A stretch of DNA of 64,000 nt from Dictyostelium discoideum (GCA_000004695.1 CM000155.2:2240001-2304000); one strand, 5' to 3'. Shown: positions 16,021 through 28,332, numbered from the stretch's first letter. Notes: generated by a model from the sequence alone, not told the origin. Numbers and translations: made by a program.

Positions 16021-18387
16021 TTATTTATTAAGAATAATTTACATGAATTATGGTCATTATTAAACTTTTTATTACCAGATGTTTTTTCATCATCAGATGA
16101 TTTTGATAAATGGTTTGATTTAGCAAATAATACAGAGAATCAACAAGAGGTTATTGATAAATTACATAAAGTTTTAAGACCATTTTTATTAAGAAGAATT
16201 AAAACTGAAGTAGAGAAATCATTACCACCAAAGAAAGAGATTAAATTATTTGTTGGTTTATCAACGATGCAAAAAGAATGGTATAAAAGATTACTTTCAA
16301 AGGATTTGGATGCAGTTGTTGTTGGAGCAAAAGGTAATACAGGTCGTGTTAGATTATTGAATATTTGTATGCAATTAAGAAAGGCATGTAATCATCCTTA
16401 CCTTTTCGATGGTGCAGAGGAAGAACCATACACAACCGGTGAACATTTAATTGACAATAGTGGAAAGATGGCATTATTGGATAAACTATTGAAAAAGTTG
16501 AAAGAAAGAGGATCAAGAGTTTTAATCTTTTCACAAATGTCGCGTATGTTGGATATTTTGGAGGATTATATGTTGTATCGTGGTTATAAGTATGCAAGAA
16601 TCGATGGTTCTACCGAATCGATCGTTAGAGAGAATTCAATTGAAAATTACAATAAACCAGGTTCAGACTTATTTGCATTCCTTTTAACCACCAGAGCCGG
16701 TGGTCTTGGTATCACTTTGAATACAGCCGATATCGTTATCTTGTTTGATAGTGATTGGAACCCACAAATGGATCTTCAAGCACAAGATCGTGCCCATCGT
16801 ATTGGTCAAACTAAACCAGTGACAGTCTACCGTTTTGTGACAGAGAATTCAATGGAGGAGAAAATGGTAGAGAAAGCAGAAATGAAACTTCAATTGGATG
16901 CATTGGTAATTCAACAAGGTCGTCTCGTTGAGGCAAATAAAAATGCAAAACCTGAAGAACTCTTGGCAATGCTTAGATTTGGTGCTGATGATATCTTTAA
17001 GAGTAAATCATCAACCATCACCGACGAGGATATCGATTCCATTCTCAAGAAAGGTGAAGAGAAAACTGAACAACTCAATAGCAAAGTTAAGGATTTAGCC
17101 TCCAATCCATTGAAATTCCAATCCGATGGTAATCTATACATGTTTGATGGCGTAAACTATAAGAATTCTCATTCCAGTGCAGGCTATTGGGCAGAGACAT
17201 TGAAACGTGAGAGAAAAACAGTCGCAGGTACAGTGGCAGCCGATGAAGAAATCGCTCCTGCAAAACCAGTGGTAAAGAGAGAAAGACGTTTCAATAAACC
17301 AAAGCAGACACCAATCTATGATTTCCAATTCTATCCACCAAGATTAACTCAACTCTATGAGAAAGAGAATGAAGCCTACAATAAAAAGGTGGAATGGTAC
17401 GACCAAAAAGATAAAGGTGAACTTCCAGAGGAAGAGGAGGAACCAGACTTTGGTGATCTATCAAAGGAGGAACAAGATCTCAAAGAAAGATTAATTAAAA
17501 CCGGTGGTTTTGGTGATTGGTCAAAAACTGATTTCCGTACTTTTATTCGTGGTTGTGAATTGTATGGTCGTAAGGCTTATCAAAGTATCGCTGAAGAGGT
17601 TCAAACTAAAACTGAAAAAGAGGTTCAACAATATTCTCAAGCATTTTGGAAAAAACACTCTGAGGTTGCCGATCATGAGAAATTGGTTGCACGTATTGAA
17701 AAGGGTGAAGAGAGAATCATGAAATATAAAGAAACTCAAGACTCTTTAAATTATAAGATCAACAAATATAAAAATCCTTGGATTGAATTAAAGATTCAAT
17801 ATGGTTTGAAAAAGAATAAAAACTATAACGACGAGGAGGATATATTTTTGGTTTGTATGTGCCATCGTTTGGGTTATGGTGCCTTTGAAGAATTGAAAGA
17901 GGAAATTAGAAAATCACCACAATTCCGTTTCGATTGGTTCATTCAAACTCGTACTTGTCAAGAATTGAAAGCTCGTGTCGATCAATTACTAAAATATATA
18001 ATCAAAGAACATCAAGAGGAAGTGGAAGCTGCAAAAGAAGCAGAGAAAAGAAAGAAAGAAAAAGAGAAATTAAAATTGGCAGCCTCTGGTGTCACCGCCT
18101 CTAAAGCAAAGACTGAATCTCCAAATAAAACACTTGGTAAGAGAAAAGATGCTCCACCATCAAAACCTCCTGCTAAACCATCTAAAGCTTCTGCTAAATC
18201 AAAACCTGCTCCAAAATCAAAGACTTCCACAACTACAAAACCTACTACTACAAATGGTAGAGGTAAAAAGAAACCTGTTGAAGAAGAAGAACCAATGGAA
18301 GAGGAAGAGGAAGAAGAAGAAGAGGTTGAAGAGGAAGAGGAAGAAGAAGAAGTTAAAGTTCCACTCAAAAAGAGACAAGTTAAATAA
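14360..18387 (+). CDS. isw: ISWI-type SNF2-family chromatin-remodelling ATPase. It has 4 exons: 14360..15167, 15255..15535, 15639..15860 and 16033..18387, giving 1221 aa. Intron 3 contains a roughly 120 bp (ATT)n microsatellite.
   Basis: Exon 1 carries the ISWI N-terminal AutoN-like motif ([15 protein letters not shown]). The exon 1/2 junction gives [21 protein letters not shown]... (human SPSYVKGGTLRDYQ). The helicase motifs are [25 protein letters not shown]|[16 protein letters not shown] (split across intron 3) and the C-terminal helicase lobe [14 protein letters not shown]. The C-terminus has HAND-SANT-SLIDE ([14 protein letters not shown]...). All four junctions were phase-checked. The 1221 aa size agrees with my memory of Dictyostelium Isw. 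Confidence 0.9.
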
Positions 18388-18614
18388 AAAAAAAAAAAAA
18401 AAAAATTAAATAAAAAAAAATAAATACAATCTTAAAAATTCAAACAAAACAATGTATCATTTTTCGTTTATAATTGTTTAAAGGGTTAAGTTTTGTTGTT
18501 TTTTTGTTTTTAGCAGGAATTGTTTAGTTTTTTAAGTCGGAAAGCAAAAAATTCTTTGGAGCCAAATAATTAAAAAAAGGTTAAAAATCGATATTAAAAT
18601 TTTTTTTTCAACAT

Positions 18615-18686
18615 GTTTCGATAGCTCAGTGGAAGAGCAAGCGACTGCAAATCGTTAGGTCGCCAGTTCAATCCTGGTTCGGAACT
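18615..18686 (+). tRNA. tRNA-Cys (anticodon GCA)
   Basis: GTTTCGATAGCTCAGTGGAAGAGCAAGCGACTGCAAATCGTTAGGTCGCCAGTTCAATCCTGGTTCGGAAC folds as a cloverleaf. It has a 7 bp acceptor stem, D arm GCTC/GAGC, anticodon stem AGCGA/TCGTT with loop CTGCAAA, and T arm GCCAG-TTCAATC-CTGGT. A T-rich Pol III terminator follows. Confidence 0.9.
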
Positions 18687-19081
18687 TTCTTTTTGGGGAA
18701 ATCAATCTTGTTATTGTTTCATATTAAAAAGTTTTCTTTTTGAAATTTTAATATGTTATTAGATTCTTTTTTAAAATTTTGGTTTGTTAGTTTGTTTGAA
18801 ATCTTCCCCAATCTCATAGGAATAATAGCACACCAATTATGGAAGATAATCTGTCACAAATTGTTCAACACTGATGAAAGCAAACCAGAGCCAAAATTCG
18901 AACAAAAGGTCATAGAAACAGAATTACTAAATCTCATCGAAACTGAAAAATTCATCACACTAAAGAAAATCAAACACGACGAAGCAATACTAAAAAATAC
19001 AAATCAAGATCTTCACAAATACAAATTCAACAAAGCCTGGCAAACCCCAGCAGCTCCGAACCCTCTTCCAATTTAAGTAGT

Positions 19082-19144
<63 letters not shown>

Positions 19145-19300
19145 GTTTAAAAAATTTAATACAATTGAATAATAAAAATAAAACCGTTTAACAAACACCG
19201 CCGAAAAGACACAAGGACATTCCTTGAAGGTCTGATCACAGGTAAAAAAAAAAAAAAAAAAGTTTGTTAGTTTGTGAGATATTTATTTTTATTAAATTTT

Positions 19301-19651
19301 TAATTTCCACCTCTTAATACAAAATGGAGTGTGGATTCTTTTTGAATGTTATAATCTGATAAAGTACTACCTTCCTCTAATTGTTTACCAGCAAAAATAA
19401 ATCTATGTTGATCTGGTGGAATACCTTCTTTATTTTAATCTTACTATTAAATGGACTGTGGATTCCATTCGAATGTTATAATATAATAAAGTATGAACAT
19501 CCTCTAATTGTTTACCTGCAAAAATTAAAATTTGTTGATCTGGTGGAATACCTTCTTTTTCTTGAATTCTAGATTTAACCTTTTCAATAGTATCTGAATT
19601 TTTAACTTGTAATTCGAAAGTTTTACCAACTAATGAAACATAAATATACAT
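19301..19651 (-). pseudogene. Ubiquitin-like gene with an internal partial tandem duplication. A diverged full-length copy (19436..19651, [73 protein letters not shown]) is followed directly, out of frame, by a second C-terminal half (19304..19435, [43 protein letters not shown]) that is nearly identical to canonical ubiquitin.
   Basis: Minus-strand translation shows the two segments in different frames, separated by a TAA. The second is about 90% identical to ubiquitin residues 27-76 and ends GGN, like the last unit of a polyubiquitin precursor. Confidence 0.55.
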
Positions 19652-20160
19652 GTTGCTGTTGTTATTTTTATAATAATAATAATAATAATTAAAGTGTTTT
19701 ATAAAATAATTTGTTGGTTTGGTTTAATTGAAAATAAAAAAAAAAAAAAACCTTTTAATTTTATAAATAAAAATTTATCTCCATTGTTATTACTACTCTT
19801 GCAAGAGACATTCAAAAAAAAAAAAAAAATCTTAAATTTGTAAGCATGACTCATAATTAAAAAAAAAAAACAAATTTCTCCAATTTTCCAAATTTATTGA
19901 GGGAACTCTAAAAAAAAAAAAAGGCAAAATTTAATAAATTGGGTACCTCGACAAAAAAAAAATATAAAATTAAAAGTAATCATTTATTATTTAATTAATG
20001 TAAATGACCTAATAATGATTATAATCAATCACTTTTTCTAAATAAAATTTTTTTATTATCACTTGTTGAAAAGAGATTACAAAAAAAAAAAAAAAAAAAA
20101 AAATTAAAAAAAAAAAAGAAAAATTATTTACTTAACCACGATAAAAAAAATAAAATAAAA

Positions 20161-20245
20161 ATTAAACCAAACTAAATCAAATCAAATCAAATCAAATCAA
20201 ATCAAATCAAATCAAATCAAATCAAATCAAATCAAATCAAATCGA
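20161..20245. repeat. (AAATC)n pentanucleotide microsatellite, about 17 units
   Basis: A run of aaatcaaatcaaatc... is directly visible. The last units degenerate to gaatc/taatc. Confidence 0.9.
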
Positions 20246-21063
20246 ATCTAATCAAATTAAATTAAACAAAATCAAAAAAAAAAAAAAAAAAAAAAAATTA
20301 ATTATATAAAAAAATAAAATTGTATAAAAACAAACTATACTTACTGAACCTACAAATTTTTATTAATCATAGAAAGAAATTTTTATGTTATCAAATATCA
20401 TTATTTTTTTTTTTTTTTTTATTTTTTTTTTTTTAATATGAATTTGTAATTTTATTAAAATGTTATTTTAAAAAATGTGGTTGCTAAATTAATTGAAACT
20501 TTTTTAATATAAAAACTTATTGTGTTTTTTTGTGTTTATTTGATTTTTTTGTTTTTATTTTTTTTCTCACCTAAATAAAAAAAAAATAAAAAATAAAATA
20601 AAAAATTAATGAAAAAGGTCGAACACCGGTTGTAGGTTTTGTTGCATCTGTAAAATCAATTATTTATTCTTATAATCAATTATTCATTCACAATCACCGG
20701 CCTCATCAAATTCATTTACATGACCCCATTAGATTTCAATTTGTTTAATCAGATTATTTAGATATGTACATATCACAAAAAGGAATTCCAAAGGTGTATA
20801 ACAAATCACCAGTACATCAATTATCTACATTACTATCATTTTTATAAACATTTTACCATTTACTCCCTTATTTCTGTGATATAGAATTTAGGTTACAATC
20901 AATTACGATAATCCATCATTATGAATTATAATTCCACGTCTATATTTAAATTTTAATTTTTTAATATGAATTTGGATTCTTTTTTTTTTAAATTTTGGTT
21001 AGTTGGTTTGTAAGATTAAAAGGAAATTAATAAACTAGAAGATGTTTAGTTTTATTTAATTTT

Positions 21064-21297
21064 TTAATTTCCTCCTCTTAATCTAAGTGATAAATTGATT
21101 GTGGAACCCGGTTGAATTTTTAATTCTCCTAAAGTACGACCATTCTCTAATTTTTTACCTAAGAAAGATAATGTTTGTTGATCAATTGGAACACCTTCTC
21201 TTCCTTCAATTACAGCTTTAACCCTTTCAATAGTATCTGTTTCTTTAAATTCGTATGAGACGGCGGAATTACCAACTTTTTTAACAAAAATTTGCAT
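21064..21297 (-). CDS. Diverged ubiquitin-like protein, 77 aa with an intact ORF ([77 protein letters not shown])
   Basis: It has a ubiquitin fold signature, MQIFVK...LRLRGG plus a terminal N, and is about 40% identical to ubiquitin. It is the second unit of a tandem array of roughly 1.4 kb units that share 3' flank motifs (taatatgaatttggat..., gtaagattaaaagg, agatgtttagttttatt). Confidence 0.6.
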
Positions 21298-22459
21298 GCT
21301 GTTGTCGTTTCAATAATTATAATAAAAATAATAATTATAATTATAAAAATAAAAATTATAAAAATAATAATAATAATAAAAATAATAATAATAATAATAA
21401 CAATAATAATAAGGTTTTATTTATTATTTATTATTTATCATTACCATTGAAAATAATTATAAACCTTTTTCTATTTTTTTTTTTTTTTAAAATTTTTTAA
21501 AAAATTACTAAAAAGAGTTAATTTCATTTTTTTAATTTTTAGTCATTATTATGTGAAAAATAATTTTTATTTTTTATTTTTGTGGGATAATAATAAAATT
21601 TTTTAAATTAACTTTATCAATAGGCATGATTCATAATTTTTTGTGGTGTTGGAATTAAAAAAAAATAAAATGCGAGCGATTACTTTTTGAGGTTTTAAAA
21701 AAAAAGTTGCAAACAACTAACCATTGCCTCATAAATTACTTTTCACCGTTTTAATTCAAAAATTATAATATCTGCAAGATCAACCTAAAAATTTCTAACA
21801 AAATAAAAAATTGGAAATTTTTAAAATATTTAACTCCATTATTTCAGTGATAGAGAGTTTAGGTTACAATAAATATTATTCATCATGAATAATATACCGC
21901 GTTTAATAATTCTTCATCTGTATTTGATTGTAACCTAAACCCTCTACCCCACTTACAAGTATATCTAACTTTTAAAATAGAAATTAATTAAAAATTAAAT
22001 AATTAATTAATTGAAAAAAGAGTATCAAGTTAAAGACACTCTATCCGCTACGAATAAAATAAATTTTAAAAATAAAAAAAAAAAATATTATTTTTGAATT
22101 ATTTTTATATTTTTTTTATATAATTTTTATATTAATAGATAAATAACCTTTTCTTAAACAAAATTTCACTACAACTATATGGCCAATGATATCTGGTAAA
22201 AGAAAAATTTTTTTTTTTTTTTTTAAAAATTTTAATTCAAAAATTAATTTTCTGTATAGATTATTTTAAAATACAAGTTTTCAATTAAATAGCAACATAT
22301 CTATTAATAACTTTGGTGATGAGGTTAAATTTTAAAATTTTATTTTTTAATATGAATTTGGATCCTTTTTTTTAAAATTTTATTTTGTTTGTAAGATTAA
22401 AAGGAAAATAATAAACAAGAAGATGTTTAGTTTTATTAAATTTTTTATATAAAACATCT

Positions 22460-22648
22460 TAATTTGGATTTTAAACTGACTGTGGAATCTGGATAAATTT
22501 TATATTAGTCTAAAGTACGACCATATTTGTTGATCTGTTGGAGTACCTTCTTTTGTTGAATTTTAGCTTTAACCTTTTCAATAGTATCTGTTTCAGTAAC
22601 TTGGTATGTGCTGGTTTGTATACCAACTATCTGGACAAAAAGTTTCAT
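22460..22648 (-). pseudogene. Degenerate third ubiquitin-like copy (MKLFVQIVGIQTSTYQVTETDTIEKVKAKIQQKK..., truncated)
   Basis: It has the same flanking motifs as the 21064..21297 unit (…gtttgtaagattaaaaggaaaataataaacaagaagatgtttagttttatt…). The ORF loses frame after about 45 codons and lacks the GKQLEDG...RGG portion. Confidence 0.5.
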
Positions 22649-23233
22649 GTTGCTGTTGTTGTTTTAAAATTATAATTATAGGTTTTTATAAAAATAAAAA
22701 ATAATTTGAAAAAAAAATAAAAAATTGGAAATTTCAAAAATATAATTTAAATACCTTATTTCAGTGATTGGATGTTTAAGTTACAGGTGATGAATTAAAT
22801 ACCTCATTTAATAATTAGTCATCTGTATTTGATTATAACCCTATGAACATTGGAAAGAGTGCATTCATTAATTCAAGTTAAAGACACTCTGTTCACTATG
22901 AATAAAATAAGTATTAAAATAAAAAATAAAAAATTAAAATTAAAAAAATTATTAATTGAGCTCAATTCGAATAATAATTAAGATACTATAGTAATATTTA
23001 ATAACTTTTTTTTTTTTTTTTTTAATATTATTTGCAAACCCAAAAAAAAAAAAAAAAAAAAAAAAAAAATAAATAAATAAACTCATTTTATAAACAATAT
23101 TGACTTTTGGTGTCCATAAAATAACTGGAAAGATTTAAAAAAAATTAAAAATGTGGAATGAGATCAATCTATTACTATATTTAAAATTAAAAAATTAAAT
23201 TGGAATTGTGCGATAAAAAATACCCTCTAAAAT

Positions 23234-23278
<45 letters not shown>

Positions 23279-24368
23279 TCATTTACATTAATTAAACAAT
23301 CTTTATTTAGGTTATTTTTAAAAGTAAATTCAAACTATTAATAAAAAGATAAAATCGGATTTCGATAATTTTAATTTTATAAATATATTTTTTAGTATTG
23401 TTTTTTTTTTTTTAAGTTATTTTATATTATTTACAACTAACATTTTTTTTTTTTTTTAAGTTATTTTATATTATTTTATATTATTTTTATATTATTTTTA
23501 TATTATTTTTATATTATTTTTATATTAATAGATAAATCACCTTTTCTTAAACAAAATTTCACTACAATTATATGGCTAATGATATAAATCTAATCAAAGA
23601 AATTTTTTTTTTTTTTTTTTTTTTAAAAAATAATAGTTTTCGTTTTAAATTAAAAATTAATTTTCTGTATAGATTATTTTAAAATACAAGTTTTCAATTA
23701 AATAACAACACATCTATTACCAAGTTTGTTAAAAAATTACCAAGAAATAAATTAAAAAATATTTGTGGTTATAGTGTGTATGTAAATGCTTAAAAAAAAA
23801 AAATAAAGCTAAGGAAAAAAAAAAAAATCTACAAACCACACATATTTTAACACACTCACACACACACGCATACACACTAAAAACTATTTTTACTATTGAA
23901 ATATATAAAGACATAATCAAAAATAACAACAACTACCATTCAAGATGAATCGTAATTTTTTTTTTTTTAAAAACGTCTTCCACATTTTATATGTTAAGAC
24001 TATTTAATATATATTTTATTTAATTAATTTTAAAATTTTTAAAATAATGGATTATATTATTGTTATTTAAAGGAAAAAAATAAATAAATAAATAAAAATA
24101 ATAGTTAAAAATAAAAAACAAATAATAAAGTAATAATAAAAAAAAAAAAAAAGGTTATTTTATTTTAAACAATTCGATTGAATAAAATCAATTTTCCTTA
24201 AAAAAAAAAATAAAAATAAAAAAATAAAAAAAAGAATTAAATTTTATAGAATCCTATAAAAATTTTGTAATATTATTATTTATTTTTTAATTTATTTATT
24301 TAATTATTTATTTTTTTTCTTATTTTTAAAAAAACTAAAAAATAAATAAAAAAAAAAAAAATAATTGA

Positions 24369-24404
<36 letters not shown>

Positions 24405-24408
<4 letters not shown>

Positions 24409-26712
24409 GAAATATAAATAAAAAATTATTTTACTTTTTAATTCAATTAATAACAATTCTAATTGTTTTATCAGATGGTAAATATTTAAATTATATTTTT
24501 AATATTTTATATGATTTTTTTATTAACTATTATTTTTTAAAAAGATTCATATAATAGTTTATTACCACTTGAAAAGGATATAGCAGTTATAATTAGGGAT
24601 TTATCACCACAAACCAATCCAGATTTTGAAATTGATAATCCAAATCGTGTTATAAAAGGGTTAGTTAAGGATCAATTGAATGAAGAAGATCGTAGTCCAA
24701 TTTATTGTTGTGGAGATGATCATGCACCAAATATCGATAGAAATAGATTTGTAATACATAATCAAAGTACATTTTATAGTTGGTTTCATAATCAAAAGGA
24801 TGTTAATATTGTAATTTCCAAATCATTAGTATTCACTAGAAATGTTACATCTGATGATCCAAGAATTTACTCTTATGAAAGTGATAATTTCTTTCCAATT
24901 GATAAGATGGGTTTTGAAGCAGATTCATACAATGGACCAATAAAAAAGAATCAATGGAAGGATAGATGGGGATTTCCAAGAAATTTCCATTTCTGCTTAG
25001 AGTTACATGCTTCATTTTTCTATATTGGTGGTGAATTATTCAGTTTCAAAGGTGATGATGATGTTTGGGTATTCATTGATAATCGTTTGGTATTGGATTT
25101 GGGTGCACCACATGATGTGTCTGGTCAAAATGGTCAAGGATCTGTATATTTGGATAATTTAGGTTTAGAGAAGAGTAAGAGTTACAATTTCGATTTCTTC
25201 TATTGTGAGCGTCATACAACCGATTCTCATATTATGGTTGAGACAAGTATAGATTTCAAATGTAAATACTATGACTATTGTGGTGTTTGTGAAGGTATGG
25301 GTAAATGTTGTAATCCTTCAGAGTGTTATGGTAGTTTGCCTGCATGTGGCCATTTCGAATGTCCAGGTTTAACTGATATCGCTCCAAATGTTGATTGGCG
25401 TTATCATTGTAAAGTTGTAGTTCCAAATTGTTCCCTCTCTGATACATTCTGTGTTAAACATCAATGTGACCCTGATAGTAAACAATGTGTACCATCCACT
25501 GATTATCAACCATGTCAAGGTAAATCCAATAGTTCTTGTATCGAAGCCCGTTGTGATGATAAAATGGGTGGTTGTTACTTAAAGAGTAAACCAAAGGATC
25601 AATCTAAAAATGATACAACTTGTTATCGTGAAACTTGTAATGAAGATACTAGCACTTGGGAGTATAAAGCACTTTGTGAAGATGATTCTGATAAATGTAT
25701 TTCAAAGAAATGTATTCCAAATTCTGGTTGCTCCAGTAGCGTTGTTGATTGTAATGATAACAATCATTGTACCATCGATAGTTGTTCAAAGGATACTGGT
25801 TGCATTCATGACCCAATTGAAAATTGTGTACCATGTGTTGAAGGCAATAAATGTTCAGAATCCAGTGATAAATGTCAACAATTGGAATGTAATCCATACA
25901 ATAGTACAACGGAATGTATTGATCGTACTAAAAAGAATTGTGATGATTCAAATGCTTGTACTATTGATACTTGTAATGGTGAAAGTGGTGAATGTGAAAA
26001 TACTCCAAAACAATGTCTTGCTAAAAATAAATGCTCCACTGCACGTTGTAACTCTAAAACAGGCCAATGTGATAATATCTATCATTGTGATGATGGTATA
26101 CTTTGTACTCTCGATAAATGTTCAGAAAATGGTACTTGCTATTATGAAGCAAATCCATGTGATGATGGTGATCAATGTACAATTGACATTTGTTTGAATA
26201 CTCTAACTGAAACTGGTGGTTGCTCTCACAGTGCTCGTGTTTGTGAACCAAAAAATTCATGTTTTACAAGTCATTGTGATAAAAAGTTGGGTTGTGTTCA
26301 AACTCCAATTGAATGCCCAGTTGAAGCTTTCTGTTTAATTAGTTTCTGTGATAATTCAACAAAGAAATGTATGACCGCTGATAGACCATGTATTCCTGAT
26401 GATCCACGTTGTCAATATGGTGTTTGTGATAACGATACCAAAGCTTGTATTTTTAAAGACTATGATCCATTACCATTTAAATGTCAATCTGCTGCTGTTA
26501 AAGCTGCCGTTGGTGTTGGTGCTGGTGCTGCAGCTGGTATTGCCATTGGTGGTGCAATTGCATTAGGTCTTGCTGCTTTTGGTGGTAAACGTGGTTATGA
26601 TGCTTGGAAATCCTCAAGAGATAATCAAATCCAAACTTCTTCTGAAAATCCATTATATAATCCAAATCCAAATCAAGGTGATAATCCACTTTATGCTGCT
26701 AATAATTCTTGA
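24405..26712 (+). CDS. PA14-domain, cysteine-rich type I membrane protein (Dictyostelium Psi/PA14 family-like). It has 2 exons: 24405..24477 (signal peptide MGNINKKLFYFLIQLITILIVLSD) and 24545..26712.
   Basis: The PA14 core reads LELHASFFYIGGELFSFKGDDDVWVFIDNRLVLDLGAPH...YNFDFFYCERHT. It is followed by about 20 Cys-rich C-x-D-x-N/D-x-C-T-x-D-x-C repeats, a hydrophobic Gly/Ala-rich TM segment, and a short cytoplasmic tail with two NPxY motifs (NPLYNPNPNQGDNPLY). Donor GAT G|GTAAAT and acceptor AAAG|AT reconstitute a GAT codon. Confidence 0.75.

Positions 26713-27209: not shown

Positions 27210-28332
<1,123 letters not shown>

What the first reader, a model, noticed from the sequence alone, without database searches (positions are those of the whole stretch)
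19301..23720. Decaying tandem array of ubiquitin-like genes derived from a polyubiquitin last unit (RGGN terminus)
At least three units exist: 19301..19651, 21064..21297 and a pseudogene at about 22460..22648, with a partial fourth flank at 23490..23720. Each has a ubiquitin-fold ORF ending RGG plus N, flanked by shared non-coding motifs. One unit is intact but only about 40% identical to ubiquitin. One carries an internal duplication of the C-terminal half that is about 90% identical to canonical ubiquitin. One is truncated. The Asn after GG is the extra residue found on polyubiquitin precursors, which suggests the array arose from the terminal unit of a polyubiquitin gene and is diverging. 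It may be evolving into novel ubiquitin-like modifiers, or it may be dying.
Basis: partly seen in the sequence, partly recalled or inferred. Interest (0 to 1): 0.5.

Follow-up and report, generated by a model that had tools for sequence, protein, structure and literature searches.

The report
Decaying ubiquitin gene copies in Dictyostelium
Three neighbouring genes in the social amoeba Dictyostelium discoideum are young, fast-diverging copies of a polyubiquitin gene, one still intact and two broken; related strains and species have lost them independently, so this looks like ordinary gene birth and death rather than a new protein-tagging system.

Summary
The window is D. discoideum AX4 chromosome 6. 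The three units are real and already annotated as hypothetical "ubiquitin-like domain" genes: DDB_G0292984, DDB_G0292908 and DDB_G0292910.

- **Unit B (21064-21297, minus strand)** is an intact 77-aa ORF ending LRLRGG-N. It is 54% identical to Dictyostelium ubiquitin.
- **Unit A** is a 73-aa ORF ending RLK*. An out-of-frame C-terminal half-copy ending LRGGN* follows it.
- **Unit C** is dead: a frameshift, a 29-nt deletion, a stop codon and a lost GG.
- **The "fourth flank"** is only the end of C's 1.39-kb repeat unit.

Descent from a polyubiquitin gene is supported. AX4 polyubiquitin-I ends GGN. The family's 5' and 3' proximal flanks match one polyubiquitin locus above background. A paralogous locus keeps the tail of a preceding repeat. 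However, the ancestor was a whole gene contracted to one or two repeats, not just its terminal unit.

Syntenic loci show turnover. There is no copy in D. firmibasis or D. citrinum, one relic in D. cf. discoideum, and different copies are broken in a divergent "D. discoideum" isolate.

B evolves at about the neutral rate (ω about 0.6-1, against 0 for its neighbour phlp1). Even so, ORF and core conservation imply selection in the past.

Verdict: a young ubiquitin-derived cluster undergoing birth and death. Expression was not tested.

The parts
19430..19651 (-). Unit A, first part (A1). A 73-aa ORF, DDB_G0292984, with a ubiquitin fold. It ends RLK* with no GG, has a 1-codon deletion near the N-terminus, and is 65% identical to ubiquitin.
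19301..19431 (-). Unit A, second part (A2). A copy of ubiquitin codons 33-76 ([11 protein letters not shown]...LHFVLRGGN*), offset 127 nt from A1 and therefore out of frame. It is 85% identical to ubiquitin in protein and 88-90% in DNA to canonical repeats. It is probably the remnant of a second repeat.
19652..19796 (-). 5' flank of unit A. It is homologous to the 5' flank of the paralogue L2u1 (L002). A block about 20-110 nt upstream of the ATG is homologous to the 5' flank of polyubiquitin locus L012.
19262..19300 (-). Proximal 3' flank of unit A, including one copy of the 14-nt target-site duplication (19262-19275).
18796..19261 (+). AX4-specific insertion that interrupts A's 3' flank. It consists of poly(A)-terminated retroelement fragment(s) flanked by the 14-nt duplication gtttgttagtttgt (18782-18795 and 19262-19275). 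It lies 110 nt downstream of tRNA-Cys and is absent from strain SRR28564542.
18704..18795 (-). Distal 3' flank of unit A, displaced by the insertion. Positions 18738-18795 align with the 3' flank of B.
21064..21297 (-). Unit B. An intact 77-aa ORF, DDB_G0292908: MQIFVK...LSLRLRGGN*. It is 54% identical to ubiquitin. The tail LRLRGG and K6/K27/K48 are kept, while the L8-I44-H68-V70 patch has become V-S-N-S. The predicted structure is a ubiquitin fold (pLDDT 89.6).
20945..21063 (-). 3' flank of unit B, 88% identical to that of C. Its first ~21 nt match the 3' flank of polyubiquitin locus L010/L012.
22457..22648 (-). Unit C, a pseudogene; its first 47 codons are annotated as DDB_G0292910. It has a 1-nt deletion at about codon 32, a 29-nt deletion, an in-frame TAA, and GGN mutated to CFI.
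22331..22456 (-). 3' flank of unit C.
20945..22330 (.). Tandem repeat unit containing B. Order on the + strand: 3' flank, gene, 5' flank, block X (21797-21946), block Y (22025-22086), block Z (22085-22315).
22331..23728 (.).

Best explanation
This is a young, lineage-restricted cluster of ubiquitin-derived paralogues undergoing birth and death.

**Proposed history**
1. A DNA-level duplicate of a polyubiquitin gene escaped the constraint that keeps ubiquitin invariant. The duplicate carried the promoter-proximal 5' flank, the first repeat, the last repeat with its extra Asn codon, and the proximal 3' flank (shown by flank and repeat comparisons).
2. It contracted to one or two repeats (inferred).
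3. It spread to at least two loci (shown).
4. At this locus, next to tRNA-Cys, it was amplified by a roughly 1.4-kb tandem segmental duplication (shown).

**Present state in AX4**
- B still encodes a foldable 77-aa precursor. Its LRLRGG-Asn tail could in principle be trimmed by a ubiquitin C-terminal hydrolase and activated. Its Ile44 recognition patch is gone (sequence shown; biochemistry inferred).
- A is a fused or truncated remnant without an in-frame GG.
- C is dead.

**Selection**
- The copies kept an open frame and the beta-grasp core for part of their history, which implies past expression and selection (inferred from simulation and the core versus surface contrast).
- Since the split from the nearest sampled lineages they evolve at about the neutral rate and are being inactivated independently (shown).
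- Today they are most likely dispensable relics, not an essential new modifier.
For: **Identity and state of the copies**
- Searches identify the genes.
- Searches show the lesions in A and C and the intact B.

**Array anatomy**
- define the repeat units.

**Polyubiquitin descent**
- The GGN terminus exists on AX4 polyubiquitin-I.
- The 3'-flank 21-mer matches 18-19 of 21 at about the same offset from the stop codon in ubq locus L010/L012. Control DNA (238,554 positions) has 0 hits with up to 3 mismatches, and the core 10-mer TAAACATCTT occurs once.
- A's 5' flank against L012 scores 37; the control maximum is 30 in 3,550 segments. L2u1 scores 29 against a control maximum of 24.
- N-terminal halves are closer to the first repeat than to the last: L2u2 89% vs 81%, A1 77% vs 69%, B 69% vs 62%.
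- The paralogous locus L002 has an A1-like copy plus a copy 89% identical to ubiquitin over the 56 aa that align. That copy shares the family 3' flank and is preceded by the tail of another repeat (P = 7e-4).
- Repeat number is labile at real ubq loci: 3, 4 or 5 repeats at one locus.

**Turnover at the syntenic site**
- No ubiquitin-like sequence in D. firmibasis or D. citrinum, and one dead relic in D. cf. discoideum.
- In isolate GCA_054859355.1, A has a stop at codon 41, B has two indels, and C is an open 75-codon frame ending RLRG*.

**Rates**
- B in AX4 versus that isolate: dN 0.09, dS 0.14, ω 0.63. Polarised nonsynonymous changes are 7 on the AX4 branch and 5 on the other.
- Neighbour gene phlp1: dS 0.059, dN 0.
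- B versus C-type: ω 0.98. Canonical repeats: pN 0.01.

**Past selection**
- The probability that B's frame stays open at 27.8% divergence under neutral substitution is 0.002-0.02.
- Core residues are conserved more than the rest (p = 0.003, 0.012, 0.06).

**Fold**
- (pLDDT 89.6; TM-score 0.9-0.95 to ubiquitin).
Against: - No expression, proteomic or conjugation data could be consulted. A full-text search for the three gene identifiers found nothing.
- ω estimates rest on 18 substitutions in 63 codons and cannot distinguish neutrality from a mix of purifying and positive selection.
- B's open frame, conserved core and perfect LRLRGG tail are what a functional ubiquitin-like modifier would show.
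- The flank matches to the ubq locus are short: about 21 nt at the 3' end and about 80 nt of AT-rich sequence at the 5' end. They are to a D. citrinum gene, because the D. discoideum orthologue of that locus was not retrieved.
- Flank-only comparison with the six polyubiquitin loci that end GGN and were fetched first was no better than background.
- Possible remnants of a further repeat after L2u1 were not significant (P about 0.1).
- Indels in the comparison assembly could in principle be assembly errors.
Confidence: 0.7

Rival explanations
1. Unit B (DDB_G0292908) is a functional, rapidly evolving, lineage-specific ubiquitin-like modifier. It would be made as a GG-Asn precursor, trimmed, activated and conjugated, with a rewired recognition surface. 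The dead neighbours would be by-products of amplification.
For: - B is an intact 77-codon ORF with an ATG and LRLRGG-N.
- The chance of an open frame at this divergence under neutral substitution is 0.002-0.02.
- B and the C-type copy of another lineage align over 75 codons without any indel, despite about 48 substitutions.
- The core is conserved more than the surface.
- The predicted ubiquitin fold is confident.
- There is a human precedent for a conjugated product of a ubiquitin pseudogene (PMC7066184).
Against: - ω is about 0.6-1 on recent branches, with at least as many nonsynonymous changes on the AX4 branch as on the pseudogene branch.
- The orthologue is frameshifted in one sister lineage, reduced to a relic in another, and absent from D. 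citrinum and D. firmibasis.
- L8, I44, H68 and V70 are replaced by V, S, N and S. From established structural knowledge, these residues contribute to contacts with E1 and with most ubiquitin-binding domains.
- No B-like protein was found in any of the other Dictyostelium assemblies in the collection.
Confidence: 0.2
2. The units are processed (retroposed) pseudogenes of ubiquitin mRNA that landed near a tRNA gene, a known retroelement target.
For: A tRNA-Cys gene and a poly(A)-ended retroelement insertion lie next to unit A.
Against: - There is no poly(A) tract on the gene strand after any unit.
- Similarity to a ubq locus extends about 110 nt upstream of the ATG, into T-run and promoter-like sequence.
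- The repeated unit is 1.39 kb and carries more than 1 kb of non-genic DNA.
- The retroelement insertion is AX4-specific and younger than the array.
Confidence: 0.04
3. Unit A is a spliced gene. A 127-nt GT...AG interval (the first C-terminal half-copy) would be removed as an intron, joining A1's N-terminal half to A2. The product would be a 74-aa protein ending LRGGN.
For: The tandem offset gives a GT at GAAG|GTATTCC and an AG at AAAGAAG|GTATTCC. Removing exactly 127 nt restores the frame (read). The joined product scores 87.5 bits on PF00240.
Against: - Any tandem duplication creates such sites.
- The interval has coding-like composition and lacks the extreme A+T content and GTAAGT-type donor of Dictyostelium introns (established knowledge).
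- In the divergent isolate the same interval is heavily decayed and A1 carries a stop codon upstream of it.
Confidence: 0.04

Closest known systems
Polyubiquitin genes of D. discoideum (ubqA-J; here polyubiquitin-I, 4 repeats + Asn)
   Same: - The N-terminus MQIFVK and the tail LRLRGG followed by one extra Asn codon and TAA.
- The Dictyostelium-type Gly19 codon is visible in the L002 copies.
- The proximal 5' and 3' flanks resemble those of one ubq locus.
   Different: - These are separate single-unit genes 1.4-1.6 kb apart, not head-to-tail repeats.
- The protein is 37-65% identical instead of 100%.
- pN to canonical repeats is 0.19-0.30, against 0.01 among canonical repeats.
Ubiquitin pseudogenes that encode ubiquitin variants, e.g. 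human UBBP4 / Ub-KEKS (PMC7066184)
   Same: They are copies of a polyubiquitin gene annotated as pseudogenes or hypothetical genes, and at least one keeps an open frame and a GG terminus.
   Different: - Ub-KEKS differs from ubiquitin at 4 residues and is shown to be expressed and conjugated.
- B differs at 35 of 76 residues, has lost the Ile44 patch, and has no expression or conjugation evidence.
[quoted passage not shown] 2000, as discussed in PMC10457151)
   Same: There is duplication, change in repeat number by unequal crossing-over, and loss of copies. PMC10457151 reports polyubiquitin genes with as few as one repeat in some Plasmodium strains.
   Different: In the classical cases the protein stays invariant. 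Here the copies escaped both purifying selection and homogenisation, and they diverge at about the neutral rate.
Type I ubiquitin-like modifiers derived from ubiquitin (NEDD8, ISG15, FAT10)
   Same: They have a beta-grasp fold and a C-terminal GG exposed by removal of extra residues.
   Different: Those are ancient, conserved across large clades and have dedicated enzymes. This family is confined to the D. discoideum complex, is variable between close lineages, and has no known enzymes.

Membership tests
Ubiquitin family (Pfam PF00240, beta-grasp) | Significant match to the family profile | tested here: met
   A scores E = 3.7e-24, B 9.1e-21 and the joined A product 4.9e-25. The C fragment scores 6.5e-4, below the curated cut-off.
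Ubiquitin family (Pfam PF00240, beta-grasp) | Beta-grasp fold | tested here: met
   The B model has pLDDT 89.6. Its top matches among solved structures are all ubiquitin, with TM-score 0.9-0.95 and rmsd 0.8-1.8 Å. Caveat: the input alignment consisted of ubiquitin variants.
Canonical ubiquitin | Near-invariant 76-residue sequence, including the L8-I44-H68-V70 patch and seven lysines | tested here: not met
   Identity to ubiquitin is 54% (B), 65% (A) and 37% (C). In B the patch is V-S-N-S and only K6, K27 and K48 are kept.
Polyubiquitin gene | Head-to-tail coding repeats with no spacer in one ORF | tested here: not met
   The units are separate ORFs 1.4-1.6 kb apart. Only A shows two adjoining partial units, and these are out of frame.
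Polyubiquitin gene | One extra residue after the final GG (Asn or Leu in D. discoideum) | tested here: met
   B and A2 end GGN*. AX4 polyubiquitin-I ends GGN, and polyubiquitin-D and -G end GGL. C does not meet this.
Descent from a polyubiquitin locus | Flank homology to a ubq locus beyond chance | tested here: met
   The 3' 21-mer matches 18-19 of 21 at about the same offset, with 0 control hits. The 5' score is 37 against a control maximum of 30. The match is to one locus only (L010/L012); the six GGN-ending loci fetched first scored no better than background.
Conjugatable ubiquitin-like modifier | In-frame C-terminal GG with an Arg72-type tail | tested here: met
   Met by B only (LRLRGG-N). 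A's ORF ends RLK, and C has lost GG.
Conjugatable ubiquitin-like modifier | Expression, processing, E1 activation and conjugate formation | not testable with these tools
   No transcript or proteome data are available here, and the literature search for the gene identifiers was empty.
Conjugatable ubiquitin-like modifier | Purifying selection and conservation of orthologues | tested here: not met
   ω is 0.63-1.3. The orthologue is frameshifted, reduced to a relic or absent in sister lineages.
Processed (retroposed) pseudogene | Poly(A) tail, no upstream homology, target-site duplications at transcript ends | tested here: not met
   There is no A-tail on the gene strand, 5' flank homology is retained, and the tandem unit is 1.39 kb.

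The most novel reading that the evidence does not exclude
DDB_G0292908 (unit B) is a newly born ubiquitin-like modifier. It would be a polyubiquitin-derived gene only as old as the D. discoideum species complex, keeping the processing and activation tail while replacing ubiquitin's recognition surface, and evolving fast under diversifying rather than relaxed selection. It would be a rare live example of how a new ubiquitin-like modifier originates from ubiquitin itself.
Probability: 0.15. Interest if true: 0.65.

Novelty: new member of a known kind. Interest (0 to 1): 0.3.

Why it matters
Ubiquitin is among the most conserved eukaryotic proteins. Copies that escape both purifying selection and homogenisation are informative about how ubiquitin-like modifiers and ubiquitin "variants" arise.

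Here the whole path can be read from sequence: a polyubiquitin duplicate, contraction of repeats, tandem amplification, surface divergence with the core retained, and lineage-specific death.

That makes the locus a tidy case study and a cheap experimental test: tag B, then look for conjugates. As it stands, it is an ordinary young gene and pseudogene cluster that is already annotated. It does not open a new question.

Tried and rejected
- **Orthologue search with B.** Only 39 candidates were found, and the best non-self hits (49-57% identical) were generic ubiquitin variants.
- **Profile search with the family alignment.** It was swamped by di-ubiquitin fragments. Its one useful product was P0160, which led to the paralogous locus L002.
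- **BLAST extension into ubq flanks.** Hits appeared to extend 40-130 nt into the flanks of the first six ubq loci. A flank-only test showed these to be no better than background in AT-rich DNA, so I rejected them. The MAFFT alignment mostly showed generic TATA plus T-run promoter architecture.
- **Remnant of a further repeat downstream of L2u1.** Not significant (P about 0.1). A free local alignment upstream of L2u2 was also not significant; only the position-anchored test was.
- **Direct look-ups.** A look-up of B's encoding contigs found none. Exact cluster look-up solved this.
- **Rfam scan of 18400-24500.** It found only tRNA-Cys, so the inverted-repeat block X matches no known RNA family.
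- **Literature.** A search for the three gene identifiers returned nothing.
- **One script timed out** and was replaced.
- **Hypotheses considered and rejected.** NEDD8 origin is excluded because the units have MQIFVK and LRLRGG rather than LALRGG. Retroposition and a functional 127-nt intron in A were also rejected.


Full report
**Source and identity**

The window has 22.8% G+C. Exact look-up places it on D. discoideum AX4, on a 3.60-Mb record. The three units are XP_629435 / DDB_G0292984 (73 aa), XP_629436 / DDB_G0292908 (77 aa) and XP_629437 / DDB_G0292910 (47 aa). All are named only "hypothetical" or "ubiquitin-like domain-containing". A full-text search for these identifiers found no paper.

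**Checking the observation**

tblastn with Dictyostelium ubiquitin hits only these places in 64 kb, all on the minus strand. My recollection of the ubiquitin sequence was verified by exact matches to UBIQD, UBIQG and UBIQI_DICDI.

| Unit | Coordinates | Identity to ubiquitin | State |
|---|---|---|---|
| A1 | 19433-19651 | 65% | ORF ends RLK* |
| A2 | 19312-19434 | 85% over 41 aa | out-of-frame half-copy |
| B | 21070-21297 | 54% | intact |
| C | 22457-22648 | 37% | dead |

- **Unit B** reads [77 protein letters not shown] and is intact.
- **Unit A** has an ORF ending ...HLIVRLK*. A second copy of codons 33-76 follows, offset by 127 nt and therefore out of frame: [43 protein letters not shown].
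- **Unit C** has a 1-nt deletion, a 29-nt deletion, an in-frame TAA, and CFI in place of GGN.

So "each ends RGGN" is wrong for C and for A's annotated ORF, and the quoted identities needed correction.

**Array anatomy**

Self-comparison shows two full tandem units of about 1.39 kb: 20945-22330 holding B and 22331-23728 holding C. On the + strand each contains the 3' flank, the gene, the 5' flank and three non-genic blocks (X, Y, Z). These blocks occur nowhere else in the window.

No gene follows it.

Unit A shares only the gene and short flanks. A contig from another D. discoideum strain (L001, 98.7% identical) lacks 18796-19261. AX4 therefore carries a 466-bp poly(A)-ended insertion with a 14-nt target-site duplication, 110 nt downstream of tRNA-Cys. 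This insertion split A's 3' flank. Without it, 18738-18795 aligns with the 3' flank of B.

**Origin from polyubiquitin**

1. *Terminal Asn.* AX4 polyubiquitin-I (four repeats) ends GGN, while polyubiquitin-D and -G end GGL. Other assemblies hold 3+N, 5+N and 4+L versions.
2. *Flanks.* I fetched seventeen ubq loci.
   - BLAST hits that seemed to run into ubq flanks did not survive a flank-only test against about 93 kb of control Dictyostelium DNA for the first six loci.
   - One locus (L010/L012, three repeats + N) does match. It comes from the two assemblies whose phlp1 proteins are labelled D. citrinum.
   - The first ~21 nt after the stop codon of the units match it at about the same offset: TTTAATAAAACTAAACATCTT against TATAATAAAATTAAACATCTT, 19 of 21 for C and 18 of 21 for B. 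The 21-mer has no match with up to 3 mismatches in 238,554 control positions, and the 10-mer TAAACATCTT occurs once.
   - A block 20-110 nt upstream of A's ATG aligns with the same locus at a collinear position. It scores 37, against a maximum of 30 in 3,550 control segments. The paralogue L2u1 scores 29 against a maximum of 24.
3. *First-repeat signature.* The N-terminal halves of all family members are closer to the first repeat of that ubq gene than to its last: L2u2 89% vs 81%, A1 77% vs 69%, B 69% vs 62%, C 68% vs 62%.
4. *A paralogous locus.* The profile search turned up L002, next to a kinesin gene in assembly GCA_054859355.1. It holds two copies.
   - L2u1 is A1-like. It shares A's 5' flank and the derived residues His54 and Ile70-Val71, and has a 7-nt deletion.
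   - L2u2 is near-canonical, 89% identical to ubiquitin over the 56 aa that align. It has TTG in place of ATG, a 2-nt deletion, a stop codon, and ends RGRN*.
   - L2u2 carries the family's 3' flank, including ATCCAAATTCATATTAA.
   - The 21 nt before L2u2's first codon resemble the end of a preceding repeat...VLRLRGG. The position-anchored test gives P = 7e-4.
5. *Labile repeat number.* Repeat number varies at real ubq loci: 3, 4 or 5 at the locus next to the Arc1p-like gene. PMC10457151 reports polyubiquitin genes with a single repeat in some Plasmodium strains.

Together these results support descent from a whole polyubiquitin gene that contracted, not from the terminal unit alone.

A1 groups with L2u1, while A2 and L2u2 are both near-canonical and share the 3' flank. 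A's "internal duplication" is therefore at least as well read as a two-repeat gene that lost 101 nt at the repeat junction (228 - 127). This last step is inference.

**Is it dying or becoming something new?**

I used the neighbouring gene phlp1 as an anchor to fetch syntenic regions.

| Lineage | Locus | State at the syntenic site |
|---|---|---|
| D. firmibasis | L022 | no ubiquitin-like sequence between tRNA-Cys and the PA14-domain gene |
| D. citrinum | L020 | none in the 10 kb upstream of phlp1, which includes that gene's upstream region |
| D. cf. discoideum | L021 | one relic: ACG for ATG, 13 codons (TQIFVKIVGKPAV), then a large deletion |
| Divergent "D. discoideum" isolate | L023 | all three units present, broken differently (below) |

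In L023:
- A has a stop at codon 41 and a decayed second half.
- B has two indels within the first 13 codons.
- C is an open 75-codon frame, [75 protein letters not shown], with Gly76 turned into TGA.

B and C were therefore probably both intact in the common ancestor of AX4 and this isolate. Several independent inactivations have followed.

*Rates.*
- B in AX4 versus L023, over 63 alignable codons: dN 0.09, dS 0.14, ω 0.63 (12.5 nonsynonymous and 5.5 synonymous changes).
- Using the C-type copy as outgroup, 7 nonsynonymous changes fall on the AX4 branch and 5 on the other.
- phlp1 over the same split: dS 0.059, dN 0.
- B versus the C-type copy: ω 0.98 to 1.29. Canonical repeats differ at 40% of synonymous sites but only 1% of nonsynonymous sites.

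*Evidence for past selection.* Complete neutrality since the origin is unlikely.
- Starting from a canonical repeat, simulated neutral substitution to B's 27.8% divergence leaves the frame open in only 0.2-1.9% of runs, before counting indels.
- B and the C-type copy align over 75 codons without a gap.
- Buried core positions are conserved more than the rest: p = 0.003 for the C-type copy, 0.012 for A1 and 0.06 for B.
- B's model is a confident ubiquitin fold.

The simplest reading is that the copies were expressed and kept foldable for a time. They then lost ubiquitin's Ile44 patch (V-S-N-S in B). They are now dispensable and dying at different rates in different lineages.

**How B would work if it still works (inferred)**

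B would be translated as a 77-residue precursor. A ubiquitin C-terminal hydrolase would remove Asn77, and the LRLRGG tail would be activated (Arg72 is the E1 specificity residue). With Leu8, Ile44, His68 and Val70 changed, activation by Uba1 and recognition by ubiquitin receptors would probably be weak. None of this could be tested here.

**Comparison with known cases, and novelty**

The closest known cases are ubiquitin pseudogenes and the variants some of them encode (human UBBP4 / Ub-KEKS, PMC7066184), and the birth-and-death view of the ubiquitin family (Nei et al. 2000, cited in PMC10457151).

This cluster belongs to the ubiquitin family by profile and fold. It is not canonical ubiquitin, not a polyubiquitin gene in its present form, and not a processed pseudogene. 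It does not meet the conservation criterion of an established ubiquitin-like modifier.

It is a new member of a known kind and is already annotated. Interest is modest (0.3). The residual novel reading, that B is a newborn modifier, gets a probability of about 0.15.

Noticed in passing
window 18796-19261 (duplicated target sites at 18782-18795 and 19262-19275); tRNA-Cys at 18615-18686: A 466-bp insertion of poly(A)-terminated retroelement fragment(s) with a 14-nt target-site duplication, 110 nt downstream of a tRNA-Cys gene. It is present in AX4 but absent from strain SRR28564542 (L001). Its position and structure fit a tRNA-gene-targeted TRE3-type non-LTR element (named from general knowledge, not tested). 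Its last 40 nt are 100% identical to L020 5471-5510 in D. citrinum.
   Followed up: partly
L002 4178-4391 and 5161-5392 (assembly GCA_054859355.1, next to a kinesin gene): A second, unlinked locus with two decayed polyubiquitin-derived units separated by about 780 nt of T-rich DNA. It is annotated there as one spliced 128-aa hypothetical protein (P0160), which looks like a mis-modelled pseudogene. Whether AX4 has this locus was not determined.
   Followed up: partly
L003, L004, L009, L011, L013 (ubq locus next to an Arc1p-like gene); L017, L019 (ubq locus next to an Oxidored_FMN (PF00724) gene): The number of ubiquitin repeats at the same polyubiquitin locus differs between Dictyostelium assemblies: 3, 4 or 5 at one locus, and 3 or 5 at another. 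The extra terminal residue (Asn or Leu) is the same in every assembly sampled at a given locus.
   Followed up: partly
L023 and L002 (assembly GCA_054859355.1) versus the window: An assembly labelled D. discoideum differs from AX4 by dS of about 0.06 in phlp1 and by 12-20% in nearby non-coding DNA. That is similar to the isolates labelled D. cf. discoideum, which suggests a deep or cryptic lineage.
   Followed up: no
window 21797-21946, with copies at 20859-20919 and 22711-22840; also L023 3614-3698: Block X of the repeat unit contains a roughly 19-nt inverted repeat (agagagtttaggttacaat ... attgtaacctaaaccctct) with a loop of about 58 nt. It has no Rfam match and no copies elsewhere in the window. 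Its nature is unknown.
   Followed up: partly
window 20170-20245: An (AAATC)n microsatellite of about 15 repeats lies between units A and B.
   Followed up: no
L001 919-1097 and L002 5858-5895: Beyond position 918 the contig from the other strain departs from AX4, just after the tRNA-Cys side. There it matches a segment near the paralogous locus at 94.7%, in the opposite orientation. This may be another mobile element or an assembly join.
   Followed up: no
window 16267-18387, about 24405-26712, 27210-28332, 31200-32927: Neighbouring genes are the 3' end of an ISWI-type SNF2 ATPase, a PA14 / Dicty_CTDC cysteine-rich membrane protein, phosducin-like protein 1 (two exons, intron 27828-27999) and a GH47 alpha-mannosidase. 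Their order is conserved in D. cf. discoideum and D. firmibasis. In D. citrinum the order from the PA14 gene onward is conserved, but the ISWI gene was not reached within 10 kb, where other genes lie.
   Followed up: partly
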